Shown here: piece after piece, positions 41,977 to 62,886 of the stretch
How the letters are laid out: every line of letters starts with the position of its first letter
Position numbering within the stretch: the stretch's first letter is position 1
IMG/VR virus record: IMGVR_UViG_3300031992_000020
Length of the DNA: 64,000 bases
DNA from: a virus
Taxonomy: Duplodnaviria > Heunggongvirae > Uroviricota > Caudoviricetes
Direction: 5' to 3' (one strand)
Made by a program: the position numbers and the translations under genes
The notes under the pieces: model-generated
Seen by the model: only the letters and a program-made list of their open reading frames with translations
What the model was told of the DNA's origin: nothing
Databases searched by the model: none

Positions 41977-43482
41977 TTAAGCGTGGATGCAAGCGTAACG
42001 CTCTGAATCAATCGCTTCCAGCATCAGATCCCAACCGGTCTTTCCGGTCAAGATGCTCTGGAAGATGGAAGGACTGAAACCAGAGACATAGCTCACATAG
42101 TGGTTGCCAATCATAGGAATGTTGGCCTGGCGGGCATCAACGTTCCAATAGATCAGCTTAGGCATCTTCAAGCCATGGCTATTGAACTTGCGCTCAATGG
42201 TTTCCATGACAGACTCGGCATTTGCGGTGCACATGCCGCCGTTGCGATGCCAGTAGTTACCGGTTGCAGAGTCGAACTCCATGTCGCTGATAACGATCAT
42301 GTACTCAGGCAATGCGGCACCAGTGCGGAGCGCGGTATCCAGCACCATATCGAAAGCGACTTCGATATTAGTGTTCTCGCAAAGGTTGGTGCGCACAATG
42401 CGATATACCTTGTCGCAGAAGTCTACACCAGCAGTCTCAATCAGCTGAGGACGAGAGCTGAAACTGATGTAGTGATTGTGCCAAGGACCCTGGTTACGCT
42501 CTGCGCAGTACATACCAAGTGCCGTAGCAACATTGATAGGAGTACCGCTCATGGAGCCAGAGGTGTCGATCATGCAAAGAGCATCCAGCTTTGCACCCTT
42601 GAAATAATCGGTCAGATTATCCCAATACTTGTTGATCATAAGACGATCAACATTGTCCATATCTACATGGGTATTGCCCCAGTAGTTAGGACGCATAAGG
42701 TCGATTGCCTTCTCAACAACCTCATAAGGATAAAGCGTTCCCGCATTTACCTTAGTATTTTCGTCCTTAGCGAACTTCTCATACTTCGCCTTGATGATAT
42801 CGCGGCGAGCGAAGGCGTTCTTATAGATAAGACCAGCCTTGGAAGGGATCTTATCGAACTCGATTTCGTCCCAACGGTTAGCGGACATAAGAACTTCCAG
42901 AACATTGATGCGCGCACGCATAATGGACAGAGTCTTACGATACTCCTTATGGGACATACCGAGATACTGACGAGTGATATTGGCCAGACGAGCGGTCTCA
43001 GCAGAACTTGCGTTCTCAGACTTCAACCACTTTGCCAACAGAGAAGGGGTCTTGCACTCGATGTCCAGAGCAAGCTGACGCTTGATCAGAGCAAGGGCAT
43101 CATTCATCAGAGGAGTCCCTTCCAGAGCGTAGAGGTCATCCCAACGACCGAACTCAGGGAAGAATTCGATGTTCTTGCGGATGGACTCACGGGTAGACTT
43201 CTCCGTTGCGGCCCAATGCACAACAGTGCGGAAAAAACGACGCTCTCCCTGACCTCCGCGCACGTCACGGATATAGAAAAGCATCTTCATAGCCAGCTCT
43301 GCGTTCTCGGCAAAAGCCTTCTTGAACATAAGGATAACATCCTCATCAGAGCGGTTACGCATAGCCGCACCCATAGCAAACATATCCAACAGGTCACTGT
43401 TGGTAGTCTTATGCGTAATGCCATCATTCTCGGTCAGAGTGTAGTTGGTAGCGGCCTTCATTCCATTAAGTAAACTATTCAT
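41977..43482 (-). CDS. TROVE plus vWA domain protein (Ro60/Rsr-like, DUF2828-type)
   Basis: C-terminal MIDAS DTSGSMSG; N-terminal TROVE-like region. Confidence 0.55.
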   Translation of the reverse strand: MNSLLNGMKAATNYTLTENDGITHKTTNSDLLDMFAMGAAMRNRSDEDVILMFKKAFAENAELAMKMLFYIRDVRGGQGERRFFRTVVHWAATEKSTRESIRKNIEFFPEFGRWDDLYALEGTPLMNDALALIKRQLALDIECKTPSLLAKWLKSENASSAETARLANITRQYLGMSHKEYRKTLSIMRARINVLEVLMSANRWDEIEFDKIPSKAGLIYKNAFARRDIIKAKYEKFAKDENTKVNAGTLYPYEVVEKAIDLMRPNYWGNTHVDMDNVDRLMINKYWDNLTDYFKGAKLDALCMIDTSGSMSGTPINVATALGMYCAERNQGPWHNHYISFSSRPQLIETAGVDFCDKVYRIVRTNLCENTNIEVAFDMVLDTALRTGAALPEYMIVISDMEFDSATGNYWHRNGGMCTANAESVMETIERKFNSHGLKMPKLIYWNVDARQANIPMIGNHYVSYVSGFSPSIFQSILTGKTGWDLMLEAIDSERYACIHA

Positions 43483-51071: not shown

Positions 51072-51157
51072 ATAAGCAAGACCCATTACATAAAAGCATA
51101 GAATGGTTGCTAATTGTTCAAATTCGCTGTTAGGGTCTTTCTTTATCTTACATATAT

Positions 51158-51186: not shown

Positions 51187-54057
51187 TCAGTCAAAGCAAT
51201 CTCCAACCTGATTAATCATAACCTCTACACCAAGAGGAGTATCATAATCAGTTATAATGTACATCGGAGTGCCGGGCAGCTTAGGTTGCGGCTGATCTGG
51301 CGGAATAATAGGTCTTTCATATGGACGATTTATAAATGTCATAACATTACCTTGTTGTGTCTGACTTTCCATATGATAGCCAAGCACAGTATATTCTCGC
51401 CATTCGTATTGTATTTCAGTACCATCGTCATTATATTGAGGTACTTCAACAGTAACAAACCAATCATTGTCCGCGCTCAACTTTACGCTCTTGATATGCA
51501 CACCATCTGCAAACAATTTTACATGTATAGCACTTGGCCGCAAAAGATCATAACCCTCATCATTCCATATCTTGCGAATACCTATCACCGTTGTAGGAAC
51601 GTCTTCTGGAATATCAATTATAGTCGTAGGTACAGGAGTTACTGATGGAATTGGATCCGGAGTAAGCGTTGGACGTGGTGTGCGCACAGGCTCCGGCGTT
51701 GGGCTAGGCGTAGCAGTTGGTGTAACGACTGGCTTGGGCGTCGGGGTGCTTGTTGGCGCAGGAGTAATTCTGGTATTTTCAAAATGAAGAGTGTAAATAT
51801 CCTTATCAAAAATACCATTCTCATTTGCTGGCACATGGATAACTGCAACATTTGCCGCGCGTTCTTCGCCAGGCGCGGGTGTTACAGTTGTCAAAGCTGA
51901 ATCATCTGAAATATAAATATTAGATATGAAATAATTATCATGTGAATCAATTTCAGTGATTGTATAATCGCCTGGGATAATCTTACCAAATCCTCTGTGA
52001 TTATCATAAATCACAAATTTATCTATTTCAGAATTGGCATTGAACTCTACTTTTGCTTCTACACCATCTGGGAAACTTGGTCCTGTGATAATAAATCTAA
52101 AATCAACAGGAACATTATCGTACTCTTTCAAATGTTTTTCAATTCTAAATCCACCAATAGGAGGAGTTGCTGTGGGCGCAGGTGTATATGTAGGGGTTGG
52201 CCGCACAGTTGGAGTAATTGTAGGAGTAGCCGTAGGCGTTGGGCTAGGAGTTACTGAAATAGTAGGAGTTGGTGTACTCGTAGGAGTCGGACTTGGAGTT
52301 ATTGTAGGTGTCACCGTAGGAGTAGGTGACGGAGTTATAGTTGGAGTAGGACTCGGTGTAACCGTAGGTGTAGGTGTTGGAGTTGGGGTTACAGTAGGAG
52401 TCGGACTTGGAGTAGGAGTAATTGTCGGTGTAGGACTTGGAGTTGCTGTTGGAGTAGGGCTAGGTGTTGGAGTTGGTGTAGGTGTTGGAGTTGGTGTAGG
52501 TGTAATTGTCGGAGTTGGACTTGGAGTTGGTGTAGGAGTAGGTGTTGGCGTTGCTGTTGGGGTAGGTGATGGAGTAGGAGTTACAGAATATTCAACTGCG
52601 GGTAATGGGAAATCTTGGATTTTATTATCTTGTGGAGTATATAAAGTCGCAGTTGTATTTGTCAAAAGTGGAATACCACCTTGTGATCCATTAAAATCAT
52701 ATGTGCCATATTCACCAGCAACAGTTTGTGGATTACTTAATTTAATGCTATAATGTAATTCCACAGAATCACAGAGCAATAGATTAGTATTAATAATCCA
52801 CTTAAATGAATCGTTTTCTTCTTCACCGTAATATATTAATGTAAATAAATCGCCAAAATGGAATGTGATATTATCACTAGTCGTAGCATTAATACGTTCG
52901 CCATTCCAAATTACATACATTCTACTTGCGTCTGGAATAAAATCCATATCATATTCATTACCGAGATTATCAATTCCAGAACCCATATAGTCCTTTACAT
53001 AGCTTCCAGTAGTAACATATGATATTTCTTTACCAATATTGCTTAATGAAAAGCTTCTGCCGCAATTCAAATATTGCATAAAAGATTGGGCATATTGGCT
53101 TGTTCTATAAGAGAAATCACCGCTATCAACATAAACTGCATAGCAATTATAACCATGCTGTTGCGCAGTTGCATAAGAAAGCATTGCATAATATAATGCT
53201 TTATCGGAAGACACAGCATGAGTAGATAGATTTCCTCTAATGTAACTGGTAGCACCATTATAGTAGTTACGAGGATCCCATCCCCACGTCTGTTCAAACA
53301 AATCTTGATCACGATTAATGGCTTGCGCCACTTCTACAAAATAATCATACCAACTTGCTGGTGCGGCGTAGGTACCATATTTGAATAAATATGTATCTGG
53401 TCCAGCGACTATATTACCATCATGCTCTTGGACTACGACAGTCTCTCCTGCTGTTTTAGTCCCACTTAAACCAAGTTGATTGTTCTTTTGATATACGTGA
53501 GTATCACCATCGCTAAGTATAATTAAATACTTATTAGATGCAGGTACTCCAGCATGATTGTCAAGCATATAAGTGCCTGTCAAGATACCTGAATTCAGAT
53601 TTGTGCCGCGATGGGTATATTGAGAAGGATGGTTCTTTGCTATCACAGTACCATCCAGTTGCCGATAAATTTTGGACTTACCATAAAAATATACTATTCC
53701 GACATTAATGTCATCTCTAGTATCAGCTGCAGACATATATTGCTGTAATAAATGCTCTGCCGCATTATCAATAGACAAGGAAGCATCTACTACAAATACA
53801 ATATCATATACATCAACACTAGTGGTAGGTATTTTCAACATGATGTTTGACTCATAGTTTTCATCCAAATTAGTAGCCGTTTTAGAAACGGCTACTTTAT
53901 TTAGATTCACAGATGAAATAGTAGGTACATATACCTCGCCACTATCTATTGTTATTTCTGGAGTATATTCATCGCTTTCTATCGCTGTCTCAGCAATACC
54001 AGCAAATGGCATCATTGCAAGTGCTATTGCTAACAATATTGCTAAAAATCTTTTCAT
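51187..54057 (-). CDS. secreted vWA-domain protein with a long Pro/Thr-rich repeat linker (adhesin or cell-wall-binding-like)
   Basis: signal peptide [20 protein letters not shown]; MIDAS VVDASLS; (TP/SP)n tract. Confidence 0.55.
51640..52570 (-). repeat. coding tandem repeat encoding (T/S)P-(T/A)P units
   Basis: ggtgtaggtgttggagttgg-type periodic repeats inside the 956-aa ORF. Confidence 0.7.
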
Positions 54058-54514: not shown

Positions 54515-54955
54515 TTACTTGTATAATTGATATTTCTTTGAAATTTTCCATGCGGTTTCATCGTCCAACGGGCGGAAACCTATACAAGTAAGAGTGCGGC
54601 CAGTGCCATCATCATCGACCATCTCTGGTTTCAATTCTGTAAGACACGCGTCCCATATGAGGAAAAAGTCTACACCTTCCCGCAACCCAAGCTCTTCGGC
54701 TATTGTTTTGACTTTAAGTAATTGTTTTAAGTTTTTAGCTTCGCAAACGGTTTTTGTAAATATGCCGTTAAACCAATCTTCATAAACATCTTTTTGGATT
54801 GTAAGCCCAACATAATAGTCATTGCTTAGACCCATTTTCTGCCCATTACCGCGAATTGCGCGTGATATAAACGCGATTGATGCATGGGCAACCTGCGCCG
54901 CAAGTTTTCCAGGTGACATTTGAAGATCTTTGCGAGCTATAATAAGTTGACGCAT
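54515..54955 (-). CDS. PTH2-family peptidyl-tRNA hydrolase
   Basis: GKLAAQVAHAS motif typical of Pth2; RBS AAGGAG. Confidence 0.5.
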   Translation of the reverse strand: MRQLIIARKDLQMSPGKLAAQVAHASIAFISRAIRGNGQKMGLSNDYYVGLTIQKDVYEDWFNGIFTKTVCEAKNLKQLLKVKTIAEELGLREGVDFFLIWDACLTELKPEMVDDDGTGRTLTCIGFRPLDDETAWKISKKYQLYK

Positions 54956-55021
54956 AAACTAGACTCCTTTCTATGGAGCGAATTAATAAAGTCGCAATAA
55001 TATAATTTGCTGCATGAGCCT

Positions 55022-55070
55022 AATAGCAGTCCCTGTTGGGATCGAACCAACACATACGGAGTCAATTAAG
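55022..55070 (-). pseudogene. tRNA-Gln 3-prime fragment (anticodon-loop remnant to acceptor 3-prime strand), no CCA
   Basis: TTGACTCC..GTTGGTTCGATCCCAAC AGGGACT resembles the 3-prime two-thirds of the adjacent tRNA-Gln; no 5-prime partner. Confidence 0.35.
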
Positions 55071-55144
55071 CTGGGGTGGTTGGATTCGAACCAACGATGC
55101 AGGAGTCAAAGTCCTGTGCCTTCGACCAACTTGGCGACACCCCA
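55071..55144 (-). tRNA. tRNA-Gln(TTG)
   Basis: acceptor TGGGGTG/CACCCCA, loop CTTTGAC. Confidence 0.8.
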
Positions 55145-55570
55145 TTATTTTAGAAACTCATCAATTGTGATTCCTTCTTCTTTTTCAAGGAAATGAAATA
55201 CACGATGGTAATTAGCACATAAGCATACACATTTATCAATTTCAGATAAGGCACGCTCTAAACTATATTTAGCTGCGATCATTCGTGCAACTGTGGTATC
55301 TTTTTGACTTGGATCTAAATGATGAAAATCTAAAGCTGTTGGATATTCATTATATCCACATTTAGCACAAGATAAATCCTATTTAATTTCTCCTATTGCT
55401 TGTCGTTTTTCTTTATATTTTTCTTTCATATAATTACTATGACAAGTTTTACATTCAGAACGCCTAGTTCCTTTTGCTTTATCACGCCAAGCAAAATCAT
55501 CTATAGATTTTTCTATACCACATTTTGTACATATTTTAGTTTCCATTAAATCAACTCCTTGCGCTACCAT
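55145..55570 (-). CDS. HNH homing endonuclease with one in-frame TAG (55379-55381)
   Basis: an N-terminal zinc finger and C-terminal HNH motifs (CAKCG..HHLD..N..H) lie in one frame separated only by TAG; TAA stop abuts tRNA-Gln. Confidence 0.6.
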
Positions 55571-55717
55571 TACGCTAAGGGACTATAAATGCGGATGAGG
55601 ATTTGCACCTCACATGATACGCCCCATTAATTCCCGTTCCCAATGCGTATCTATCCATAGCACAGCTACTGAAGAGCACCTTCAACTCTAGCGTCTACCT
55701 ATTCCGCCACCGCAAAG
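55568..55717 (-). ncRNA. 150-nt tRNA-like structured RNA (class-II-like 5-prime acceptor/D arm, internal hairpins, non-canonical T loop TGCAAAT)
   Basis: 5-prime GCGGTGG..GCGGAATAGGTAGACGC; 3-prime TGAGGTGCAAATCCTCA TCCGCAT; acceptor pairs at only 5 of 7 positions. Confidence 0.3.
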
Positions 55718-55804
55718 CGACACTAGCACGGCTCGAACGTGCATACCCTTTTACAAGTAACCTCGACTTAGCAGGTCGGTGCGTTACCATTCCGCCATAG
55801 TGTC
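55718..55804 (-). tRNA. tRNA-Ser(GCT)
   Basis: acceptor GACACTA/TAGTGTC, loop CTGCTAA, long variable arm. Confidence 0.75.
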
Positions 55805-56009
55805 ATTTATCTCTTATAAAATTTCCTACATCAGCTAATGTTTCTTGAATAGAAATTGTTAAATTGCCATCAACTGCATATTTAAAATGAATTTTTGTAT
55901 AGGTTGTATTATCATCTAATTTACTTTCTGTTACTCCTGCAATATTATCTACCGGAATAAGATGAATTACATCGGGATATTGTTTATTATGAACAACAAT
56001 ACTTTTCAT
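55803..56009 (-). CDS. hypothetical protein
   Basis: ORF track. Confidence 0.3.
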   Translation of the reverse strand: MKSIVVHNKQYPDVIHLIPVDNIAGVTESKLDDNTTYTKIHFKYAVDGNLTISIQETLADVGNFIRDK

Positions 56010-56119
56010 TTATAATTCTCCTCTTTTTTAATACATCCAATAAGAAAACGCCGCGGAAGAGTTGCGGATACTACTTGGCCTCTTTCTAACAGGTCTTTTT
56101 TAATACCCAAACGGGATAC

Positions 56120-56247
56120 CAACGCGGCAAACTCGACACCAAATATTCTTACGCTCTACCTATTGAGCTACTTGCGCAATGCACAAGATCGGACTTGAAC
56201 CGACTACATTAAGATCCTATCTTAAATTTGCTGCTGGTGTCGAAGAT
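56120..56247 (-). ncRNA. apparently circularly permuted or split tRNA: 3-prime half (T arm plus acceptor strand CTTGTGC) is followed after ATT by the complementary 5-prime half (GCGCAAG plus D arm)
   Basis: acceptor strands pair at 7 of 7 (one G-U); anticodon-stem strands TAAGA/TCTTA are also complementary; order is inverted relative to a normal tRNA. Confidence 0.4.
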
Positions 56248-56322
56248 GGTCGGAGTGGTGAGACTCGAACTCACGACATCCAGTTCCCAAAACTGGCGCG
56301 CTACCAACTGCGCTACACCCCG
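56247..56322 (-). tRNA. tRNA-Pro(TGG)
   Basis: acceptor CGGGGTG/CACTCCG, loop TTTGGGA, CCA encoded. Confidence 0.8.
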
Positions 56323-56406
56323 ATATACAAGAGGCTTTTGCATATTTTCTCGTCTAAAATATTTTATATACATTGCTGTATGCCTCTTTCTTTATCTTAC
56401 ATATAT

Positions 56407-56435
56407 ATTATATAATATTTTTTTATAAAAATCAA
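56407..56435 (-). promoter_or_regulatory. sigma70-type promoter TTGATT-17-TATAAT heading a tRNA cluster
   Basis: reverse complement reads TTGATTTTTATAAAAAAATATTATATAAT. Confidence 0.55.
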
Positions 56436-57466
56436 TCTAAGTATTTATAAACCCAATCTTTAAATGTAATTGTTTCGATAAACTTAATATAAATATATCC
56501 TTCTGTTCTATATGCCGCAAATTCATTTAATTGTTCCGGATCATTATATATAAATTCAATAAAATCTTCTGTTGACATATTAAAATTTTGTTTAAACCTA
56601 ACAAAATATAATTTTAATAAATCATAATAGTTTTGCGGGATAGACGGACAATTATTTTTAGGATATGTTAAACCCATAAAATCAAAATAAATTCTAAAAA
56701 ACATTGGCACGATACTTATCTTGAAAAAGTTATAAAGTTCATCTGTCATAATGTTTTCTTGTTGAGCTTTTTCAAAATAGTCTAATGCAATACCTAATGT
56801 TGATTTCATATAATCAGGCAATGATTTAAAGAAATAACCATTTTTATGTTTATTGTCAGATAATGATCCTTCATGTTCAAGCCAATTATAAGTTAATAAT
56901 TTTAATTCATGTGATATTAAGCCATATTGAGTTAAAACGCATTGTACTTTTAAAGTAAAATTAACATCTTCATCATAATTTACTTCATCATATGAAATAT
57001 TATATTTATTCAAAAAAGATTTTTCATAAAATTTACCATGAGTACCTTGCACAGGACGATCAAAAAAATTAGTTATAACCCCATTTGGTTGAATCATTCT
57101 TGTTGAAGTAATGATATAATTTTGAGTTTGATTAGTTTTGATAATTCGTTTTATTTTATCAAAAGTATTGTCCTCAAAATAATCATCTTGATCTATAAAA
57201 GTTATCCACTCGCCTGATGCTTCTTCAAGTCCATGCTGTCTACCTGCACGAGGAAAGCCATAGTGTCTATCATTTTTAATAATTTTAATATTTAAATCAT
57301 TAAAATTTGAAATTAAATCATTATAAAGATTCTCGGAACAATTAGAACAATCATCAGATAAAATAATTTCAATATCATCAACACAATAATTTGTGTTAAT
57401 ACTGGCTAATAATTTAAGTAAACAATCGCCAGGATTATAAGTTGGCACTATTATAGAAAAGAGCAT
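56432..57466 (-). CDS. family 2 glycosyltransferase
   Basis: IIVPTYN..DDCS GT2-like motifs. Confidence 0.65.
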   Translation of the reverse strand: MLFSIIVPTYNPGDCLLKLLASINTNYCVDDIEIILSDDCSNCSENLYNDLISNFNDLNIKIIKNDRHYGFPRAGRQHGLEEASGEWITFIDQDDYFEDNTFDKIKRIIKTNQTQNYIITSTRMIQPNGVITNFFDRPVQGTHGKFYEKSFLNKYNISYDEVNYDEDVNFTLKVQCVLTQYGLISHELKLLTYNWLEHEGSLSDNKHKNGYFFKSLPDYMKSTLGIALDYFEKAQQENIMTDELYNFFKISIVPMFFRIYFDFMGLTYPKNNCPSIPQNYYDLLKLYFVRFKQNFNMSTEDFIEFIYNDPEQLNEFAAYRTEGYIYIKFIETITFKDWVYKYLD

Positions 57467-57508
57467 TATATTTACTCCTTATTTATATTGGCAGCCTGCC
57501 TGGGAAGA

Positions 57509-58152
57509 TTAATTTATAAATATCCATTTAAATCCATAGGCGGTACCTTCTCTTTTCACACTACGAGAGATAGTAACAGATATGCTTTTAATATTACTTT
57601 TTGATAAATTATTATCTATTATATATCTCGCAGCATCTTTTAATGATGTAAAACTTATAGCTTGATTAGTATTATTATTTATTCCTAAAACCTGTTTTCC
57701 ATATTTTCGTTTATTAGTTTGTTGAAATGTTTTAGGAACAATATTATAATTAGTTAAAGCATGTTTAACTGTTTTAATATCAACTTTACATGCTTTAGCT
57801 GTGTCTGTTAAAGATTGTAATTTAAGATATGTATTTTTAATTAAATTATAATCTTTATATTGTGTTCCATCTCCACCATAAGTTGCATTATAACCATATT
57901 TAAAGCTTCGATAAAACTCAATCCAATATTTTTCACGATCTGAGGCTTCTTCAACTTTACATTCTTCTAATTGTGATATAACAAAATTTTCTATACCGTA
58001 TTTATTAAAAGCTGCATATAATGGACGATGACATTCTTCAGATTTTTTGCTATCCAATATATGCCTTTTCCATCGTTCCTCAATAGTTGCGACTGTTTTA
58101 CCGATATAAACTTTATGGTTTAGTTTATTCTCTATTTTATAGATGTATGCCA
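57509..58152 (-). CDS. GIY-YIG homing endonuclease
   Basis: YIYKIENKLNHKVYIGKT motif; RBS GGAG; immediately downstream of the suppressor tRNA. Confidence 0.6.
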
Positions 58153-58179
58153 TAACTAAATAGCTCCATTCTTTATATT

Positions 58180-58269
58180 CGGCCCTCCAGGGATTCGAAC
58201 CCTGACTACCTCCTTCAGAGGGATATAACGGTTTTAGAGACCGGTGTTCTACCATTGAACTAGAGGGCT
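58180..58269 (-). tRNA. suppressor tRNA, anticodon CTA (reads UAG); class II with long variable arm and G73, so a Ser-type scaffold is predicted
   Basis: loop CTCTAAA flanked by stem CGGT/ACCG; D stem GTTC/GAAC; variable arm about 22 nt (CCCTC..GAGGG); T arm CAGGGTTCGAATCCCTG; acceptor AGCCCTC/GAGGGCC (A1-C72 mismatch). Confidence 0.75.
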
Positions 58270-58379
58270 ATAATTCTCTTCTTTATTTATTTCAAAAATA
58301 TTATAGCATATTTTTTTTACCTTGTCCAGTCACTTTATTTAGGATTGCGCGCATATGACCAATTTGGATTAAAAAATTG

Positions 58380-58575
58380 CTGGGCTGGGTTTTGATCGGG
58401 TGCACGGGCATCTGCGGCCGGACCAGATTATGCCATTAAAATGCCCGGCCTGATCAGTCCCTCGGCCGGGCTTTGTGGCCCCTCGTGTTGCATTACGCAC
58501 GGTGACCATGGTTCTATTTATATTGCGCCTTCCCTTTCCGGATTAGTGCGAGACTGACACCAGTCGGCGCCGGGG
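58380..58575 (-). ncRNA. GC-rich (about 60%) highly structured non-coding island next to tRNA-Met
   Basis: multiple nested inverted repeats (GGGCAT..ATGCCC, GGCCGG..CCGGCC); no credible ORF; contrasts with the AT-rich genome. Confidence 0.3.
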
Positions 58576-58578
58576 TAA

Positions 58579-58655
58579 TGGTGCCTGCGGGTGGATTCGA
58601 ACCACCGACCTACGGGGTATGAGTCCGTTGCTCTGACCACCTGAGCTACACAGGC
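58579..58655 (-). tRNA. tRNA-Met(CAT)
   Basis: acceptor GCCTGTG/CGCAGGC, loop CTCATAC, CCA encoded. Confidence 0.75.
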
Positions 58656-58698
58656 ATGAAGGGCAGACACATCCGCCCGACAAAATCAATCGCCGCAA

Positions 58699-59238
58699 TT
58701 ACGGCCACTCACCAAGAGGCATACCAAGATTAGCACGCTCAACATTGGTATTGAAGAACACGCCTTGAACGGCAGGACCAGTGAGAAGTTCATCAGCAAT
58801 AGTCTCATAAAGAGTGCTGATCACGCCATGACAATCATTTAGATTATCAGCTGGGAACTGTACCACACAGTTGTTGAATACGACATAAGTCGTTCCAATC
58901 CACTGATAACCTTCCTCAGCTGGGCAAACAGAATAAGCATATGCGGGATTCTTCTCAAAAGCGGTATTAAACAATTCAACCTTACTCTTGAAAGCACGAT
59001 TGGAAGGAGTGCCGTCAACCATAACTTTGAGCTTTACATTACCAAAACAAATCTCTTCAGGAAGGATTTGCTGGAGTGCGGCGACCTTATCACCATTATT
59101 GCAAGCAAATACAATAGAAGGAGTGGAGCCACCAAAGTCACAGTTGCACGCGATCTGCGGATCGCCATCAAACAGTGCCTCGAACTTGCGAATCACAATA
59201 GTCCAAGGCGGAAGGATCTTGAGTCTTGCGTCAGCCAT
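58699..59238 (-). CDS. hypothetical protein
   Basis: ORF track; RBS AAAGGAGAAAC. Confidence 0.4.
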   Translation of the reverse strand: MADARLKILPPWTIVIRKFEALFDGDPQIACNCDFGGSTPSIVFACNNGDKVAALQQILPEEICFGNVKLKVMVDGTPSNRAFKSKVELFNTAFEKNPAYAYSVCPAEEGYQWIGTTYVVFNNCVVQFPADNLNDCHGVISTLYETIADELLTGPAVQGVFFNTNVERANLGMPLGEWP

Positions 59239-59284
59239 TATTGTTTCTCCTTTTTAGATCTAAAAATACAAGACCCGTTTATAA

Positions 59285-59345
59285 TCGCGCTTCTACCACT
59301 GAGCGACCCCGGCATGTGCCGGAAGTTGGATTCGAACCAACGCTT
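59285..59345 (-). ncRNA. second permuted-like module: T arm plus acceptor strand TTCCGGC, then CAT, then complementary 5-prime half GCCGGGG plus D-arm-like GCTCAGTGGTAGA
   Basis: acceptor strands pair (two G-U); D arm imperfect. Confidence 0.3.
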
Positions 59346-59390
59346 TACGGGATTTACAGTCCAAAAAAATATTGCTGACAGGTCTTTGAG

Positions 59391-59461
59391 AGCGGCTAAC
59401 GGGGTTCGAACCCGTGACCCAACCTTGGCAAGGTCGTATGTTACCACTACACCATAGCCGC
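59391..59461 (-). tRNA. tRNA-Gly(GCC)
   Basis: acceptor GCGGCTA/TAGCCGC, loop TTGCCAA. Confidence 0.75.
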
Positions 59462-59467
59462 ATATTC

Positions 59468-59554
59468 TGGGTGGAAGGACAGGACTTGAACCTGCACGCT
59501 CTTTCGAGCACGTGGGCCACAACCACGCGTGTCTACCATTTCACCACCGACCAC
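59468..59554 (-). tRNA. atypical class-II tRNA-like gene with anticodon GTG, C73 and CCA; acceptor has two central mismatches
   Basis: anticodon arm CGTGG TTGTGGC CCACG; variable hairpin GCTC GAAA GAGC; T arm GCAGGTTCAAGTCCTGT. Confidence 0.35.
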
Positions 59555-59559
59555 ATGCC

Positions 59560-59641
59560 TAGACCGCTTAATTGCATATGGGAATCGAACCCATGTTCTC
59601 GGTTTGTTATACCAATGTCTTATCCACTTGACAAATGCGAA
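59560..59641 (-). tRNA. tRNA-like, anticodon loop ATAACAA (AAC, Val-type, A34); 5-prime acceptor strand appears interrupted
   Basis: D arm GTC AAGTGGATAA GAC; T arm ATGGGTTCGATTCCCAT; acceptor 3-prime strand ATGCAAT only pairs if a 13-nt insertion in the 5-prime strand is ignored. Confidence 0.3.
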
Positions 59642-59705
59642 GCCTTGCGGCAATTGCTGAAACGGTCTATTGTATTTAAGTCATTCTCCGACTCTGAAGC
59701 ATTTT

Positions 59706-59780
59706 TGGTACCGGCACAGGGAATCGAACCCTGGTAACGAGTTTAGAAGACTCGGGCTCTATCCGTTGAGCTATACCGGC
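59706..59780 (-). tRNA. tRNA-Arg(TCT)
   Basis: acceptor GCCGGTA/TGCCGGT (G-U at both ends), loop CTTCTAA, CCA encoded. Confidence 0.75.
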
Positions 59781-59864
59781 AAATAATCAAGACTCTATTA
59801 AGGCTACTTTTTGTTTACAACACAAAATGATGCTTTAATAATTTGCTGTGTGAGTCTTAATCAG

Positions 59865-59947
59865 TGCGGAATGAGGGACTCGAACCCTCACGTCATTAAG
59901 ACACATGATCCTTAGTCATGCCTGTCTACCAGTTCCAGCAATTCCGC
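59865..59947 (-). tRNA. tRNA-Leu(AAG), class II, A34
   Basis: acceptor GCGGAAT/ATTCCGC; anticodon arm CATGA CTAAGGA TCATG; long variable arm. Confidence 0.65.
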
Positions 59948-60024
59948 ATAAAGTGGGGTCGTTAGACCCCTAATATTATACCCACGGGCTCCTGCTATGC
60001 AGTCACTGCTCTTGCGTGGGTGAG

Positions 60025-60096
60025 TACCCCCTCAGGGATTCGAACCCTGGTCGTTCGGTTCGTAGCCGAATACTCTGTCCGTTGAGCTAAAGGGGC
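60025..60096 (-). tRNA. tRNA-Arg(ACG)
   Basis: loop CTACGAA, stem TTCGG/CCGAA. Confidence 0.75.
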
Positions 60097-60291
60097 ATAA
60101 AAGATGACCACTCGCGTCCCACCGCCCTGTTCTACTTGCTTATTGGTTAAATGATTTCGTTACTTAATCTGTTCTTCGGTTGTTCTACTTTCGCTTGCGT
60201 TCATCAGTAGCCTTCACAGATAGTCCATACCTCACTAAATCTCCCAAATCGTCTAAGTAGTTATGCGCCTAAGCCTTGTCCGTCATCCTAC

Positions 60292-60367
60292 TGGTACTCC
60301 ACAAGGGATTCGAACCCTCACTGTATGCGTTCTAAGCGCATCGCCTCTGCCGTTGGGCTAATGGAGC
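60292..60367 (-). tRNA. class-I tRNA with anticodon TAG (Leu CUA codon), A73, CCA encoded
   Basis: anticodon arm ATGCG CTTAGAA CGCAT; short variable arm is unusual for Leu. Confidence 0.55.
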
Positions 60368-60453
60368 ATAAAATAGATGGTGAGACTGTATTAGGAAGGA
60401 GGTATCAACATGAAAGGAGGTTATGTGGAAAAGGGGGTGTCTCACCATCAAAG

Positions 60454-60537
60454 TGCCCAAGGTGGGATTCGAACCCACAATGTATCAATGTAGACGATTT
60501 TGAGTCGCCCCTGTCTCGCCAGTTGCAGCACTCGGGC
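60454..60537 (-). tRNA. tRNA-Leu(CAA)
   Basis: loop CTCAAAA, class II. Confidence 0.7.
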
Positions 60538-60540
60538 ACA

Positions 60541-60626
60541 TGGTGCGGGTAGCCGGATTTGAACCGGCACGGGACTAGCCCAGCGGTTTTTAAGACCGCA
60601 GCGTCTACCGATTCCGCCATACCCGC
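60541..60626 (-). tRNA. tRNA-Leu(TAA)
   Basis: acceptor GCGGGTA/TACCCGC, loop CTTAAAA, long variable arm, CCA encoded. Confidence 0.8.
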
Positions 60627-60638
60627 AAGTTTGAGGAA

Positions 60639-60917
60639 TCAATCCTCAAAAGAGGGAATTTCTTTTGAATGACGCCACGGATATTCTTTATAGTATTCGG
60701 GATTGACAATCTCGCCCAGTTCGCTATCAGCCATGATGGAATCTTCACCAGTAGGCTCAATCTGGAGTTTGATGATATTATCTTCACCAAAATACTCAGC
60801 CAAACGCTTTGTCGCTTTCGCCAGATTTTTTGCACAGACAATACCTGCATCACGGAATGTCATTTCTTCAGAAGGTTCACAAGATATAATTTTATAACGA
60901 AACAGCATCTTTCTCAA
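60639..60917 (-). CDS. hypothetical protein
   Basis: ORF track. Confidence 0.3.
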   Translation of the reverse strand: MRKMLFRYKIISCEPSEEMTFRDAGIVCAKNLAKATKRLAEYFGEDNIIKLQIEPTGEDSIMADSELGEIVNPEYYKEYPWRHSKEIPSFED

Positions 60918-60942
60918 TCCCCTTTCTTTATCTTACATATAT

Positions 60943-60971
60943 ATTATATAATATATTTTTAAGTTTTTCAA
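60943..60971 (-). promoter_or_regulatory. sigma70-type promoter TTGAAA-17-TATAAT
   Basis: reverse complement reads TTGAAAAACTTAAAAATATATTATATAAT. Confidence 0.55.
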
Positions 60972-60973
60972 AT

Positions 60974-61061
60974 TGGCGATCGGAGAAGGATTCGAACCTT
61001 CGGACCCTCGCGGGTCAGTGGTTTTCTAGACCACCGCCATAGTCCACTCGGCCATCCGACC
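60974..61061 (-). tRNA. tRNA-Ser(AGA), A34
   Basis: acceptor GGTCGGA/TCCGATC; anticodon arm GTGGT CTAGAAA ACCAC; long variable arm; CCA encoded. Confidence 0.65.
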
Positions 61062-61064
61062 ATA

Positions 61065-61152
61065 TGGCGATCTCGGGTGGATTCGAACCACCGGACCCCG
61101 GAGGGTCAACGCCTTAGCAGGGCGCCGCATTCAACCACTCTGCCACGAGACC
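61065..61152 (-). tRNA. tRNA-Ser(GCT), second copy
   Basis: acceptor GGTCTCG/CGAGATC, loop CTGCTAA, CCA encoded. Confidence 0.75.
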
Positions 61153-61247
61153 ATTACTAGACACGCTTATCTTCCCGGAGCCGACCCGGTGCTTTGTTGC
61201 TTCCAAAATGCTAGAATGAAGAAAAATTGCTGACGTGTCTCGGCAAG

Positions 61248-61318
61248 AGCCTTCTATTGGAATCGAACCAATATTCATGCTTTACGAAAGCATTGTTCTG
61301 CCACTAAACTAAGAAGGC
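61248..61318 (-). tRNA. tRNA-Thr(CGT)
   Basis: acceptor GCCTTCT/AGAAGGC, loop TTCGTAA. Confidence 0.7.
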
Positions 61319-61320
61319 AA

Positions 61321-61345
61321 AAGGCGGTTAGCTAGACCGCCGATT
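61321..61345. terminator. bidirectional terminator hairpin ggcggt..accgcc with T tracts on both strands
   Basis: 6-bp GC stem just after the stop of the 61348..61665 gene. Confidence 0.5.
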
Positions 61346-61347
61346 TT

Positions 61348-61665
61348 TTAGAAACCCCAAAAAGTCTTAAAGAAGTTTCTGAATGGATCATAATTGCCAA
61401 GCACCATATCCGCATCTTTCAGCGAAGTATGGAAGGTGCCATAATCCTTGCAGAATGCCTGCAACTTATCATTGGCTTCCTTCTGTGCTTCAAGAGCAAA
61501 TTTAAGAGCTTCTTCAACTTCTTTGGCACGCTCTTCACGTTTAGCCTTTTTCTCTGCTTCTGCAGCTTCACGAGCCTTGCGTACAGACAACACCTTCTCT
61601 TCAGCGGTGTTGAGTTCTTCAATCGTGTCATATGCCTTATTGGTTACTTCAGATAAATACTTCAT
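61348..61665 (-). CDS. hypothetical coiled-coil protein
   Basis: ORF track. Confidence 0.4.
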   Translation of the reverse strand: MKYLSEVTNKAYDTIEELNTAEEKVLSVRKAREAAEAEKKAKREERAKEVEEALKFALEAQKEANDKLQAFCKDYGTFHTSLKDADMVLGNYDPFRNFFKTFWGF

Positions 61666-61773
61666 AATTTCCTAATCTCCTTTATGAATATTCATCTTAT
61701 ACCGGTATAAAATTTGCTCCTATTGTACGCGATTTCAGGCAGGAGTGACCTGGGTTCTATTGCTCCCCAGCAT

Positions 61774-61847
61774 TGGAGCGCCATGTGGGAATTGAACCCA
61801 CACATACTGCTTGGAAGGCAGTCATACTACCATTATACGAATGGCGC
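61774..61847 (-). tRNA. tRNA-Gly(TCC)
   Basis: acceptor GCGCCAT/ATGGCGC, loop CTTCCAA, CCA encoded. Confidence 0.75.
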
Positions 61848-61849
61848 AC

Positions 61850-62090
61850 GTGGCGTAAAACCCCAAACTAGCCATCATCGCGTCCGGCCGGACCGCATGT
61901 TTTCTGCCTTGAACGGACCGCGCCGTAGGCAAGGAAGAGGGACCCAGGGCATTGCACCCAGCCCATGGTAGTTTTTAGACTTGCTGGTCATGGTAGGGGA
62001 TCTTTTATTATTCCTTTGGTACCCAGGCATCCCGCATTGTACCAAGATCGTGCTCATTAAACACAACCCTCGGGCCTTAAACCCATGTGG
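61850..62090 (-). ncRNA. GC-rich structured non-coding island
   Basis: about 240 nt, GC-rich, no credible ORF, between tRNA-Ile and tRNA-Gly. Confidence 0.25.
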
Positions 62091-62164
62091 TCGGGTATTC
62101 TGGAATCGAACCAGAAGCCTCTCGCTTATCAGGCGAGTGCGCTAACCTATTGCGCCAATACCCG
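62091..62164 (-). tRNA. tRNA-Ile(GAT)
   Basis: acceptor CGGGTAT/ATACCCG, loop CTGATAA. Confidence 0.75.
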
Positions 62165-62679: not shown

Positions 62680-62700
62680 ATAACAAGACGGACTTATAAA

Positions 62701-62757
62701 CGTGCTCTACCAACTGAGCTACTTCCCCATAGTGGGGAAGATTGGATTCGAACCAAT
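62701..62757 (-). ncRNA. third permuted-like tRNA module: T arm plus acceptor strand CTTCCCC, then ACTAT, then canonical 5-prime half GGGGAAG TA GCTCAGTTGGTAGAGC
   Basis: acceptor strands pair 7 of 7 Watson-Crick; the 5-prime half lies downstream of the 3-prime half; flanking 7-bp complement AAGACGG/CCGTCTT. Confidence 0.4.
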
Positions 62758-62807
62758 GCACCGTGCTCCTCAATGCAAAAAGAATAATTGCTGACCCGTC
62801 TTTAAAA

Positions 62808-62883: not shown

Positions 62884-62886
62884 AAA

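What the first reader, a model, noticed from the sequence alone, without database searches (positions are those of the whole stretch)
56120..56247. tRNA gene halves in inverted order with complementary acceptor strands (circularly permuted or split tRNA-like modules)
At three loci (56120-56247, 59285-59345, 62701-62757) a T arm plus acceptor 3-prime strand is followed, after a 2- to 5-nt linker, by a 5-prime half (acceptor 5-prime strand plus canonical D arm). The 5-prime strand pairs with the upstream 3-prime strand (7 of 7, including G-U). At 56120 the anticodon-stem strands TAAGA/TCTTA also match, and the reconstructed loop would be ATAAGGA (Leu-AAG-like). Normal gene order would be the reverse. 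Permuted or split tRNAs are known only from a red alga, a few green algae and archaea, and I know of none in a phage or bacterium. Alternative explanations are recombination scars or paired pseudogene fragments.
Basis: seen in the sequence. Interest (0 to 1): 0.7.

Follow-up and report, generated by a model that had tools for sequence, protein, structure and literature searches.

The report
Phage Y-RNA-like tRNA mimics
The three "inverted tRNA halves" are real, but they are conserved small RNAs that mimic a tRNA with a closed acceptor end, a variant of the known bacterial and phage YrlA Y RNAs, and not permuted or split tRNA genes.

Summary
At 56130-56244, 59267-59386 and 62682-62802 a T arm and acceptor 3' strand are followed by a 3-5-nt loop, then a fully pairing acceptor 5' strand and a D arm.

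Each module sits inside a conserved frame. A 9-11-bp closing stem (WAGAC-N4 / N4-GUCUWG) is followed by an invariant CAGCAAU. A 3-5-bp stem stands where the anticodon stem would be, and there is no anticodon loop.

I found 56 distinct copies in this window and in 60 loci from related ~165-190-kb phages. Covariation is strong: 96.5% of cells paired, and 21 of 25 pairs show compensatory changes. The tRNA 15:48 tertiary pair also covaries.

This is the topology of YrlA Y RNAs (Rfam RF02553). RF02553 matches two of the three loci, but only below threshold (36 and 31 bits; cut-off 69).

The window also encodes a DUF2828/DUF7788 protein (41977-43482) whose predicted fold best matches Ro60. Homologues lie within 0.1-6.3 kb of R1-matching RNAs, on the same strand, in mycobacteriophage Halena, Bacillus phage Thrax3, a Felixounavirus, Sinorhizobium phiN3, Enterococcus VRE9_3 and Cronobacter S13.

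Verdict: a new variant of a known kind, of moderate interest.

The parts
56130..56244 (-). YrlA-like RNA copy 1 (L1). P1 is 56244-56234 with 56142-56132. CAGCAAA is 56233-56227. The anticodon-stem analogue is TCTTA 56214-56210 with TAAGA 56151-56147. T arm 56204-56188; acceptor hairpin 56187-56171 (loop ATT); D arm 56168-56153.
   Evidence: R1 88.8 bits. Rfam RF02553 36 bits, full length. MFE fold z = -4.3. It starts 3 nt after the CCA of tRNA-Pro, which ends at 56247.
59267..59386 (-). YrlA-like RNA copy 2 (L2). P1 is AAGACCTGT 59386-59378 with ACGGGTCTT 59278-59270. CAGCAAT is 59377-59371. T arm 59341-59325; acceptor hairpin 59324-59307 (loop ACAT); D arm 59304-59289.
   Evidence: R1 100.6 bits. 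It follows tRNA-Gly, which ends at 59390. A near-identical copy sits at the same place in L001.
62682..62802 (-). YrlA-like RNA copy 3 (L3). P1 is AAGACGGGT 62802-62794 with GTCCGTCTT 62693-62685. CAGCAAT is 62793-62787. T arm 62757-62741; acceptor hairpin 62740-62722 (loop ACTAT); D arm 62719-62704.
   Evidence: R1 115.9 bits. Rfam RF02553 partial match, 30.9 bits. It fills the whole gap between tRNA-Asn (ends 62808) and tRNA-Phe (starts 62679).
41977..43482 (-). Gene for a 501-aa DUF2828/DUF7788 protein with a Ro60-like predicted fold: an N-terminal helical repeat domain and a C-terminal vWA domain with MIDAS motif DTSGS at residues 306-310. It is the proposed protein partner of the RNAs.
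   Evidence: Pfam. PHROG 850 'RNA-binding protein', E = 7e-122. AF2 model with pLDDT 69.5. The top nine Foldseek PDB hits are all Ro60/Rsr, E = 2.8e-7 to 1e-4, aligned over the full length. Homologues are annotated 'Ro-like RNA binding protein' in mycobacteriophages.
61155..61241 (-). Frame-only relative: GAGACACGU-CAGCAAU ... GCGUGUCUAGU. It has the same closing stem and motif, but two plain hairpins replace the tRNA-like domain. This is comparable to YrlB versus YrlA.
   Evidence: R1 32.1 bits over model positions 1-122 with the tRNA domain deleted. Fold shown.
59786..59858 (-). Frame-only relative: AAGACUC ... CAGCAAA ... GAGUCUUG.
   Evidence: R1 19.2 bits; sequence and fold. Weak on its own. 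It is counted because about 100 similar short frames occur in the related loci.
54957..55022 (-). Frame-only relative: AGGCUC ... CAGCAAA ... GAGUCUAGU.
   Evidence: R1 25.4 bits; sequence.
51075..51139 (-). Frame-only relative: AAGACCC ... CAGCGAA ... GGGUCUUG.
   Evidence: R1 17.4 bits; sequence. Weak.
59557..59669 (-). The same frame (UAGACCGUU-UCAGCAAU ... AAGCGGUCUAGG) enclosing a tRNA-like sequence in normal order, which ARAGORN calls tRNA-Val(AAC) at 59570-59641.
   Evidence: (15.9 bits). Similar 111-nt frames with odd 'tRNA-???' inserts occur in L015, L025 and L039.

Best explanation
The three loci encode ~115-120-nt non-coding RNAs of the Y-RNA-like (YrlA) type.

Architecture. A terminal stem is formed by the RNA's own 5' and 3' ends (WAGAC-N4 pairing with N4-GUCUWG). 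An internal loop carries an invariant CAGCAAU. A short stem stands in for the anticodon stem. Then comes a complete tRNA elbow: variable loop, T arm, a 7-bp acceptor stem closed by a 3-5-nt loop, and a D arm.

Proposed mechanism.
1. Inferred from position: the RNAs are co-transcribed with the tRNA array. They are set free by the RNase P and 3'-end processing that matures the flanking tRNAs.
2. Shown by covariation: they fold as described, including the tRNA 15:48 tertiary pair.
3. Inferred from co-occurrence and analogy: the conserved stem plus CAGCAAU is the binding site of the phage's Ro60-like DUF2828 protein.
4. Inferred: the tRNA-like domain is recognised by tRNA-handling enzymes. Because the acceptor stem is 7 bp, usually with U at -1 and G at +1, RNase P can probably open the loop. 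That would give a two-piece RNA with a CCA or CCA-completable 3' end, as shown experimentally for M. smegmatis YrlA.
5. Speculative: the ribonucleoprotein acts in RNA quality control or repair, or recruits a host exoribonuclease during infection. This fits the neighbouring RNA ligase, phosphoesterase and nucleotidyltransferase genes.

The RNAs do not mature into decoding tRNAs.
For: Structure. On 36 MAFFT-aligned members (alignment not fitted to the structure), 96.5% of cells pair versus 71% in shuffles and about 40% in slid controls. 21 of 25 pairs change on both sides. P1 is 99% paired, with 7 of 9 pairs compensatory. RNAalifold independently recovers P1, the T arm and the acceptor hairpin.

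Spread. 62 matches (56 distinct) at E < 1e-6 in the window and 60 related IMG/VR loci, all on the gene strand.

tRNA mimicry (52 parsed copies). U8 in 50. T loop UUCRANU. 15:48 is A:U in 25 and G:C in 17. The anticodon-stem analogue averages 3.8 bp versus 2.7 +/- 0.13 with shuffled partners. It covaries, for example CCG/CGG, ACG/CGU, UCUUA/UAAGA and UCUAU/AUAGA.

Processing hints. 12 of 52 copies encode NCCA directly after the 7-nt acceptor 3' strand. Position -1 is U in 30 of 52 and +1 is G in 36 of 52. [quoted passage not shown]

Family link. Rfam RF02553 YrlA has the same topology and matches L1 over model positions 1-114 at 36 bits, E = 1e-6 on the local region.

Partner. The DUF2828 protein's top nine PDB fold matches are all Ro60/Rsr. 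Homologues occur in 703 phage records. R1-matching RNAs lie on the same strand near that gene in six other lineages:
- Halena: 64.5 bits, about 110 nt downstream; Rfam YrlA gives 39.8 bits at the same spot.
- Thrax3: 70.5 and 54.7 bits, about 2 kb upstream, inside its tRNA array.
- Felixounavirus Tribble: 52 bits.
- phiN3: 56.4 and 43 bits.
- VRE9_3: 55.9 bits.
- Cronobacter S13: 45.2 bits.
The GAC...CAGCAAU...GUC frame is kept from GC-rich actinophages to AT-rich rumen phages. The T4 tRNA cluster gives only tRNA-junction noise of at most 25.6 bits.
Against: - No expression or binding data exist for any of these RNAs.
- The published Ro-binding motif GNCGAA(N)G is absent; CAGCAAU occupies its place.
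- Rfam YrlA scores are about half the gathering threshold.
- The protein is Ro60-like by predicted fold only, from a moderate model (pLDDT 69.5, TM about 0.5). No member hits Pfam TROVE. A profile search of PDB sequences reaches phiLo Ro60 only at E = 0.84.
- In this window the gene lies 12.6-19 kb from the three RNAs. That is outside the 4-kb criterion of Chen et al., though on the same strand.
- Listeria LMTA-148 and Campylobacter F341 carry the protein next to tRNA arrays but gave no R1 hit. KVP40 gave only an ambiguous 27.5-bit hit.
- In this phage the upstream hairpin and the post-D-arm strand compete for the same partner strand at L1. The exact junction fold is therefore not settled.
Confidence: 0.75

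Rival explanations
1. They are true circularly permuted or split tRNA genes. The transcript is circularised or trans-joined, then cut at the acceptor end, to yield a normal decoding tRNA, as in Cyanidioschyzon merolae.
For: The 3' half does precede the 5' half, with 7 of 7 acceptor pairing. A 3-5-bp anticodon-stem analogue exists. Some relatives encode NCCA after the acceptor 3' strand. The phage encodes an RNA ligase at 36746-38149.
Against: - No anticodon loop is encoded or can be reconstructed.
- The ends are extended by a conserved 9-11-bp stem and a conserved CAGCAAU that a tRNA would not need.
- The same frame carries non-tRNA inserts.
- There is no bulge-helix-bulge motif, and bacteria lack the archaeal/eukaryal splicing endonuclease (established knowledge).
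- ARAGORN and Rfam tRNA do not call them.
Confidence: 0.03
2. They are recombination scars or decayed fragments of tandem tRNA genes with no function. This includes the trivial case of a T arm from one tRNA lying next to the D arm of the following tRNA.
For: The domain plausibly originated from a tRNA dimer. At L1 and in several relatives, the anticodon-stem 5' strand occurs both upstream (in a hairpin) and after the D arm. Chen et al. warn that dimeric tRNAs can mimic YrlA.
Against: - 56 distinct copies keep all helices through compensatory changes.
- The acceptor strands pair with each other, which adjacent independent tRNAs do not do.
- There is no 5' half upstream and no 3' half downstream.
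- Real tRNA junctions score at most about 33 bits against 89-116 bits here.
Confidence: 0.01
3. They are structured tRNA-mimic RNAs, but they work without the Ro-like protein. Examples would be a decoy or sponge for host tRNA-targeting defence nucleases or tRNA-modifying enzymes, or a processing or stability element of the tRNA-array transcript. The conserved frame would then be a processing site, for example for RNase III.
For: They are always embedded in tRNA arrays on the same strand. In this window the Ro-like gene is 12.6-19 kb away. Some phages with the protein gave no R1 hit. Phage tRNA arrays are commonly linked to evasion of tRNA-cleaving defences (general knowledge).
Against: - Anticodon nucleases need an anticodon loop, which is missing.
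- The frame with its single-stranded CAGCAAU is conserved across very distant phages that share the DUF2828 protein. In Halena, Cronobacter S13 and the staphylococcal phage it lies immediately next to that gene with no tRNA array around it.
- T4 has a tRNA cluster but no match.
Confidence: 0.15

Closest known systems
YrlA (Y RNA-like A; Rfam RF02553), the tRNA-mimicking Y RNA bound by bacterial and phage Ro60/Rsr (Chen et al. 2014, PMC4201824)
   Same: - The order of elements matches: terminal stem from the 5' and 3' ends, conserved motif just inside it, optional hairpin upstream of the T arm, T arm, closed acceptor-like hairpin, D arm, anticodon-stem-like helix.
- tRNA tertiary positions are kept, including 15:48 covariation.
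- It co-occurs with a Ro-like protein gene on the same strand, and phage examples are known.
- The one YrlA with a 7-bp acceptor stem is cut by RNase P and receives CCA.
   Different: - CAGCAAU replaces GNCGAA(N)G.
- The closing stem is a conserved perfect helix (GAC/GUC core).
- Rfam scores are 31-40 bits against a cut-off of 69.
- The partner is a DUF2828/DUF7788 protein that resembles Ro60 by fold only, not a Pfam TROVE protein.
- Several paralogues per genome sit inside the tRNA array. Chen et al. discarded matches overlapping annotated tandem tRNA genes and kept only each genome's best match within 4 kb of Ro60.
- Many relatives encode NCCA in the acceptor loop.
Yrl1/Yrl2 of Thermus phage phiLo with phage Ro60 (PMC12135203; PDB 9L5Y)
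   Same: Phage-encoded Y-RNA-like RNAs paired with a phage Ro60-fold protein. 9L5Y is the best structural match of the window protein.
   Different: The phiLo RNAs were recognised by a CGAA motif and a stem-bulge-stem shape. They lie next to a canonical TROVE protein, and no tRNA-like domain is described for them.
Circularly permuted tRNA genes of Cyanidioschyzon merolae and some green algae; split tRNAs of Nanoarchaeum (from my own knowledge)
   Same: The 3' half (T arm plus acceptor 3' strand) precedes the 5' half (acceptor 5' strand plus D arm) in one transcript. The acceptor strands are joined by a short linker that must be removed by RNase P and 3' processing.
   Different: Those genes encode a complete anticodon arm once the transcript ends are joined, and they use a bulge-helix-bulge motif and the splicing endonuclease and ligase. 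Here there is no anticodon loop and no BHB. The ends form a long conserved stem instead.
Two-piece (circularly permuted) tmRNA genes of alpha-proteobacteria and cyanobacteria (from my own knowledge)
   Same: A bacterial precedent for a permuted tRNA-like domain processed into two base-paired pieces with a CCA end.
   Different: tmRNA has a tag reading frame and pseudoknots and lacks a true D arm. ARAGORN, which detects permuted tmRNA, reports none here.
T4 stable RNAs rnaC and rnaD (species 1 and 2) in the T4 tRNA cluster
   Same: Small stable non-tRNA RNAs of 119-139 nt, encoded within and processed from a phage tRNA cluster (annotation).
   Different: They do not match model R1 and lack the GAC...CAGCAAU...GUC frame.

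Membership tests
YrlA Y RNA (RF02553; Chen et al. 2014) | T-arm-like and D-arm-like stem-loops with a closed acceptor-like stem-loop between them, in the order T, AS, D | tested here: met
   The T loop is UUCRANU and the D loop is A14-R15...GG. The acceptor hairpin is 98% paired, and all 7 of its pairs covary.
YrlA Y RNA (RF02553; Chen et al. 2014) | The 5' and 3' ends pair into a terminal stem (Ro-binding module) | tested here: met
   P1 is 8-12 bp in all 42 copies examined. It is 99.1% paired, with 7 of 9 pairs compensatory.
YrlA Y RNA (RF02553; Chen et al. 2014) | GNCGAA(N0-1)G motif near the 5' end | tested here: not met
   The equivalent position carries an invariant CAGC followed by A/W (CAGCAAU) in the window, its relatives, Halena, Thrax3 and Tribble. 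It is similar in place and flavour but is not the published motif.
YrlA Y RNA (RF02553; Chen et al. 2014) | Compensatory G15:C48 / A15:U48 (Levitt pair) and other tRNA tertiary positions | tested here: met
   A:U in 25 and G:C in 17 of 52 copies; U8 in 50 of 52.
YrlA Y RNA (RF02553; Chen et al. 2014) | Score at or above the Rfam gathering threshold (69 bits) | tested here: not met
   L1 36 bits, L3 30.9 bits, L2 no match. Halena 39.8 bits and Thrax3 37.5 bits.
YrlA Y RNA (RF02553; Chen et al. 2014) | Encoded within 4 kb of a Ro60 (TROVE) orthologue on the same strand | tested here: inconclusive
   In the window the strand is the same but the distance is 12.6-19 kb, and the protein is DUF2828-type, not Pfam TROVE. 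Among relatives of that protein, the RNA lies 0.1-2.4 kb away on the same strand in Halena, Thrax3, Tribble, S13 and one phiN3 copy. It lies 4.3-6.3 kb away in VRE9_3 and the other phiN3 copy.
YrlA Y RNA (RF02553; Chen et al. 2014) | Bound by the Ro60 orthologue in vivo; carries tRNA-type modifications | not testable with these tools
   Needs immunoprecipitation and modification mapping.
Ro60/TROVE protein family (for the 501-aa partner) | HEAT-repeat ring plus a C-terminal vWA domain with MIDAS; sequence match to TROVE (PF05731) | tested here: inconclusive
   Fold: the top nine Foldseek PDB hits are Ro60/Rsr over the full length, and DTSGS is present. Sequence: no TROVE hit in any of 10 members, and the profile reaches phiLo Ro60 only at E = 0.84.
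Circularly permuted tRNA gene (C. merolae type) | The 3' half lies upstream of the 5' half, and the acceptor strands are complementary | tested here: met
Circularly permuted tRNA gene (C. merolae type) | Joining the transcript ends reconstitutes a complete anticodon arm with a 7-nt loop and a defined anticodon | tested here: not met
The ends continue into an internal loop and a 9-11-bp conserved stem.
Circularly permuted tRNA gene (C. merolae type) | Bulge-helix-bulge motif at the junction for the splicing endonuclease | tested here: not met
   P1 is an uninterrupted helix. Inspection of the covariation-supported structure shows no 3-nt bulge / 4-bp helix / 3-nt bulge arrangement.
Circularly permuted tRNA gene (C. 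merolae type) | Circular RNA intermediate and a mature aminoacylated tRNA | not testable with these tools
   Needs circRNA-seq or tRNA-seq.
Split tRNA (Nanoarchaeum type) | Halves encoded at separate loci and joined in trans through complementary leader sequences | tested here: not met
   Both parts are contiguous in one roughly 120-nt unit.

The most novel reading that the evidence does not exclude
RNase P opens the acceptor loop of these RNAs, and the 3' end is trimmed or extended to CCA. The result is a two-piece tRNA mimic held together by the conserved stem and bound by the DUF2828 Ro-like protein. Its free CCA end is charged by a host or phage aminoacyl-tRNA synthetase. The phage would then carry a family of chargeable, anticodon-less tRNA bodies used as sensors, decoys or scaffolds in the conflict over host tRNA cleavage and repair. 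More modestly, the GAC...CAGCAAU...GUC frame would be the handle of an undescribed modular Y-RNA system, present in hundreds of phages including Felix O1-like phages.
Probability: 0.1. Interest if true: 0.8.

Novelty: new variant of a known kind. Interest (0 to 1): 0.45.

Why it matters
- It removes a false lead. There is no evidence for permuted tRNA genes in a phage.
- It extends the Y RNA/Ro60 system. A sequence-divergent Ro-like protein family (DUF2828/DUF7788) has homologues in 703 phage records. It appears to have its own RNA partners, with a distinct conserved handle and interchangeable inserts.
- Current tools miss or mislabel these RNAs. Rfam scores them below threshold, and Cronobacter phage S13 annotates one as a 121-nt 'tRNA-Ser' and a 'tRNA-OTHER'.
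- What the tRNA-like domain of YrlA does is still unknown. Culturable phages that carry this variant, such as Felixounaviruses, cluster-L mycobacteriophages and Bacillus phage Thrax3, would make the question experimentally accessible.

Tried and rejected
- Megablast of 55000-64000 against cultured phages found only single tRNA genes, so there is no close cultured relative.
- A sequence search of the DUF2828 protein against PDB gave nothing meaningful. A 10-member profile reached Ro60 only at E = 0.84. No TROVE Pfam hit appeared even at E <= 1.
- A second homologue search with the diverse profile returned the same close relatives, so I could not build a better structure model.
- The promoter/terminator scan of the array was uninformative: terminator-like sites were near shuffle expectation, and promoter-like hits (38 versus 23.1 +/- 5.6 in shuffles) fit no pattern in this AT-rich DNA.
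- The supplementary tables of Chen et al. and two Wolin-lab reviews are not held. I therefore could not check which phages and which Ro type they covered. In particular, I do not know whether cluster-L, DUF2828-type phages were included.
- BLAST of the Rfam YrlA consensus against phages hit only 14 actinophage records, some annotated as tRNA there.
- Listeria LMTA-148 and Campylobacter F341 gave no R1 hit, and KVP40 gave an ambiguous one.
- An Rfam-style outer pairing at L1 (CAGCAA with UUGCCG) was considered. I rejected it because it crosses the covariation-supported P1 and has no counterpart at L2 or L3.
- The group I intron, integration-site (att) and tmRNA readings were considered and dropped. 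No matching 3' exon, no flanking repeat logic and no ARAGORN or Rfam signal were found.
Full report
**Context.** The last 13 kb of the window holds 26 tRNA genes, all on the minus strand (ARAGORN; Rfam). The rest of the window carries phage-type replication and nucleotide-metabolism genes, also on the minus strand. No cultured phage is close at the DNA level. About 60 related IMG/VR contigs, many of 165-190 kb, share the region.

**Checking the observation.**
- a canonical T arm;
- a 7-nt acceptor 3' strand;
- a purine 'discriminator' plus 2-4 more nucleotides;
- a 7-nt acceptor 5' strand that pairs 7 of 7 with the upstream strand;
- the dinucleotide UA or UC;
- a canonical D arm.

The TAAGA/TCTTA complementarity at the first locus is also real. 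ARAGORN and Rfam at gathering threshold call none of the three a tRNA. The 'reconstructed loop ATAAGGA' cannot be derived from the sequence without arbitrary cuts.

**What surrounds the core.** The core is not the whole unit.
- Each core is enclosed by a long-range helix: UUCGACACCAG/UUGGUGUCGAG at L1, AAGACCUGU/ACGGGUCUU at L2 and AAGACGGGU/GUCCGUCUU at L3.
- On the 5' side the helix is followed directly by CAGCAA(U/A).
- On the 3' side it is preceded by AUA(A/U)-like nucleotides.
- L2 and L3 differ in the helix by compensatory changes.
- L1 changes the outermost conserved pair from A-U to C-G.

**The family.**
- nhmmer with the three window copies found 47 full-length matches in the related loci, all on the gene strand. 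Every one has the closing helix, at 6-12 bp (8-12 bp in all but one), with freely covarying inner positions.
- The helices were tested on a MAFFT alignment of 36 members, which was not fitted to any structure. The four helices (closing stem P1, T arm, acceptor hairpin, D stem) are 96.5% paired. Column shuffles give 71% and slid partners about 40%. 21 of 25 pairs change on both sides. RNAalifold independently recovers P1, the T arm and the acceptor hairpin.
- The covariance model R1 built from this alignment scores the window loci at 115.9, 100.6 and 88.8 bits. It finds 62 matches (56 distinct) at E < 1e-6 in the window plus 60 loci.
- Junctions between real tRNAs, the known false positive for this topology (PMC4201824), score at most about 33 bits.

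**The tRNA-like body.** Counts below are from 52 parsed copies.
- U8 is present in 50.
- The T loop is UUCRANU.
- The D loop keeps A14 and, in most copies, the GG dinucleotide.
- The Levitt pair covaries: A15:U48 in 25 copies and G15:C48 in 17.
- The nucleotides after the D stem pair with those 5 nt upstream of the T stem, which is where tRNA positions 27-31 and 39-43 lie. This stem averages 3.8 bp, against 2.7 +/- 0.13 when partners are shuffled among sequences. It covaries: CCG/CGG, ACG/CGU, CGG/CCG, UCUUA/UAAGA, UCUAU/AUAGA and UCUAA/UUAGA.

The domain is therefore a full tRNA body without an anticodon loop. The anticodon-stem analogue runs through the CAGCAAU-containing internal loop into P1.

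In one subfamily that includes L1, the 39-43 strand can also pair with an upstream copy of the 27-31 strand. This suggests an origin from a tRNA dimer, and it leaves the exact junction fold open.

**Identity.**
- This topology is that of the tRNA-like domain of YrlA Y RNAs. The Rfam model RF02553 has the structure outer stem / inner stem / T arm / closed hairpin / D arm. It aligns to L1 over all 114 positions at 36 bits (E = 1e-6 for the local region) and to the L3 core at 30.9 bits. Both are below the 69-bit gathering score.
- Chen et al. (PMC4201824) define YrlA by several features: the T/AS/D arrangement, a hairpin upstream of the T arm, 15:48 covariation, a 5' GNCGAA(N)G motif, and a position within 4 kb of a Ro60 gene on the same strand. 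They reported it in 254 bacterial species and 22 phages.
- They also showed that M. smegmatis YrlA, the only one with a 7-bp acceptor stem, is cut by RNase P in vivo and in vitro and gains CCA. Both halves stay bound to Rsr.
- The RNAs here all have 7-bp acceptor stems. Position -1 is U in 30 of 52 copies and +1 is G in 36 of 52. In 12 of 52 the loop begins NCCA. The same processing is therefore plausible, but it is inferred.

**The protein partner.**
- No ORF in the window hits Pfam TROVE.
- The 501-aa product of 41977-43482 (minus strand) is DUF2828 plus DUF7788. It matches PHROG 850 'RNA-binding protein' at E = 7e-122 and has a DTSGS MIDAS motif.
- Its AlphaFold model is moderate, with pLDDT 69.5 and pTM 0.53. 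The nine best PDB matches are all Ro60/Rsr structures aligned over the full length. They are led by Ro60 of Thermus phage phiLo (E = 2.8e-7; TM about 0.5). After these come isolated vWA domains.
- Sequence methods do not see the relationship, so the likeness is at fold level only.

**Co-occurrence across phages.** tblastn finds homologues in 703 cultured-phage records. In cluster-L mycobacteriophages they are annotated 'Ro-like RNA binding protein'. I sampled ten distant lineages.
- The gene lies beside or inside the phage's tRNA array in Thrax3, KVP40, Listeria LMTA-148, Felixounavirus Tribble, Campylobacter F341, Enterococcus VRE9_3 and Cronobacter S13.
- R1 finds same-strand matches near the gene in six lineages:
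  - Halena: 64.5 bits, about 110 nt downstream. Rfam YrlA gives 39.8 bits at the same place.
  - Thrax3: 70.5 and 54.7 bits, between tRNA genes about 2 kb upstream.
  - Tribble: 52 bits.
  - phiN3: 56.4 and 43 bits.
  - VRE9_3: 55.9 bits.
  - S13: 45.2 bits. The public record annotates this stretch as a 121-nt 'tRNA-Ser' and a 113-nt 'tRNA-OTHER'.
- A staphylococcal phage has a 66-nt frame-only match (29 bits) directly after the gene.
- These matches keep a GAC (or GRC)...CAGC(A/U)A(U/A)...GUC-type frame although everything else has diverged. In phiN3 and S13 the frame is itself degenerate (CCGCAAU; CAGCACU with a non-GAC stem).
- LMTA-148 and F341 gave no match, and KVP40 gave only an ambiguous one.
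- The T4 tRNA cluster, used as a negative control, gave only tRNA-junction noise. Its stable RNAs rnaC and rnaD do not match.

**The frame as a module.** R1 and a pattern scan also find the same closing stem plus CAGCAAU around other inserts.
- In the window these are at 61155-61241, 59786-59858, 54957-55022 and 51075-51139, which hold plain hairpins.
- At 59557-59669 the frame encloses a tRNA-like sequence in normal order, which ARAGORN calls tRNA-Val(AAC).
- Across the related loci the scan lists about 40 permuted-type frames, about 100 other frames and 5 with normal-order tRNA-like inserts. The last two counts are rough because the scan has false positives.
- A shared handle with variable effector modules is how Y RNAs are organised (YrlA versus YrlB). 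This supports reading the frame as the protein-binding site. No data here show binding.

**Mechanism proposed.**
- Shown: the fold, and the conservation of the tRNA-like elbow and of the frame.
- Inferred from position: the RNAs are released from the array transcript by processing of the neighbouring tRNAs. L3 fills the whole gap between the CCA of tRNA-Asn (62808) and the first base of tRNA-Phe (62679). L1 starts 3 nt after the CCA of tRNA-Pro. L2 starts 3 nt after tRNA-Gly.
- Inferred from analogy and co-occurrence: the DUF2828 protein binds P1/CAGCAAU. RNase P opens the acceptor loop, followed by CCA maturation.
- Speculative: the RNP works in RNA surveillance or repair, or in recruiting an exoribonuclease. 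Supporting context includes:
  - an RNA ligase gene (36746-38149);
  - a phosphoesterase gene (34254-35141);
  - a nucleotidyltransferase-like gene (39210-40025);
  - a methyltransferase gene (40038-40850);
  - a PTH2 gene (54515-54955), on the same strand;
  - RtcB and RNA ligase genes next to the homologue in Listeria phage LMTA-148;
  - the view of Ro/TROVE plus a tRNA-like partner as an RNA-repair platform in jumbo phages (PMC7824862).

**Verdict.** The permuted/split-tRNA interpretation is not supported, and the scar/pseudogene alternative is refuted.

The RNAs work like YrlA and are its closest relatives, but they fail three formal YrlA criteria:
- the GNCGAA motif;
- the Rfam threshold;
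- a TROVE neighbour within 4 kb in this window.

I therefore class them as a new variant of a known kind rather than a plain member. Interest is moderate. The class is known, including in phages. The DUF2828-linked, tRNA-array-embedded, modular form appears undescribed in the literature I could search, and public annotation misses or mislabels it.

Noticed in passing
window 61937-62069 (-): Full-length match to Rfam RF03083 'cow-rumen-3 RNA' at 71.4 bits (E = 7e-15), below its 86.7-bit gathering score. It lies inside the tRNA array and lacks the CAGCAAU frame. It points to a rumen or gut origin for the phage.
   Followed up: partly
window 58179-58270 (-): ARAGORN calls a 92-nt 'tRNA-Pyl' with anticodon CUA (Rfam tRNA 55.4 bits). 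This would be an amber-suppressor-type tRNA with a long variable arm. It overlaps the start of the GIY-YIG ORF at 57509-58255. The phage may read TAG as sense late in infection.
   Followed up: no
window 59570-59641, 59864-59947, 60974-61061, 60024-60096 (-): Four tRNA calls have A at position 34: Val-AAC, Leu-AAG, Ser-AGA and Arg-ACG. Apart from Arg-ACG this is unusual for bacteria. The Val-AAC one sits inside a CAGCAAU frame, has a weak acceptor stem and may not be a real tRNA.
   Followed up: partly
window 61155-61241, 59786-59858, 54957-55022, 51075-51139 (-): Short RNAs of 65-87 nt have the same closing stem and CAGCAAU motif but no tRNA-like domain. About 100 similar frames were listed in the related loci.
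   Followed up: partly
window 34254-43482 (-): A run of RNA-handling genes lies on the same strand as the Ro-like gene: phosphoesterase (34254-35141), RNA ligase of the DRB0094/PHROG 968 type (36746-38149), nucleotidyltransferase-like (39210-40025), SAM methyltransferase (40038-40850) and an HNH homing endonuclease (41148-41636).
   Followed up: partly
window 57509-58255, 50169-50477, 41148-41636 (-): GIY-YIG and HNH homing-endonuclease genes are interspersed in or near the tRNA array. The position of the YrlA-like copies varies between related contigs, so the array is being reshuffled.
   Followed up: no
L068 11896-12138 (Cronobacter phage S13, KC954775: 132703-132945): Features annotated 'tRNA-Ser' (121 nt) and 'tRNA-OTHER' (113 nt), just downstream of the DUF2828 gene, overlap an R1 match (45.2 bits) that contains ACCA in the acceptor loop. 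This is probably a mis-annotated YrlA-like RNA. KVP40's 116-nt 'tRNA-Pseudo-3' (L063 304-419) gave only a weak match of 22 bits.
   Followed up: partly
window 51187-54057 (-): A 956-aa ORF beside the tRNA array has a weak N-terminal vWA match and a C-terminal Cna_B domain. It is not TROVE-like and is probably a surface or structural protein.
   Followed up: no
L064 12852-16563 (Listeria phage LMTA-148): The DUF2828 homologue there is followed by genes annotated RtcB (split into two ORFs), RNA ligase, a phosphohydrolase (just before RtcB) and a phosphoesterase (about 1 kb further downstream). This resembles the bacterial rsr-yrlA-rtcBA RNA-repair operon, yet R1 found no RNA match in that locus.
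   Followed up: no
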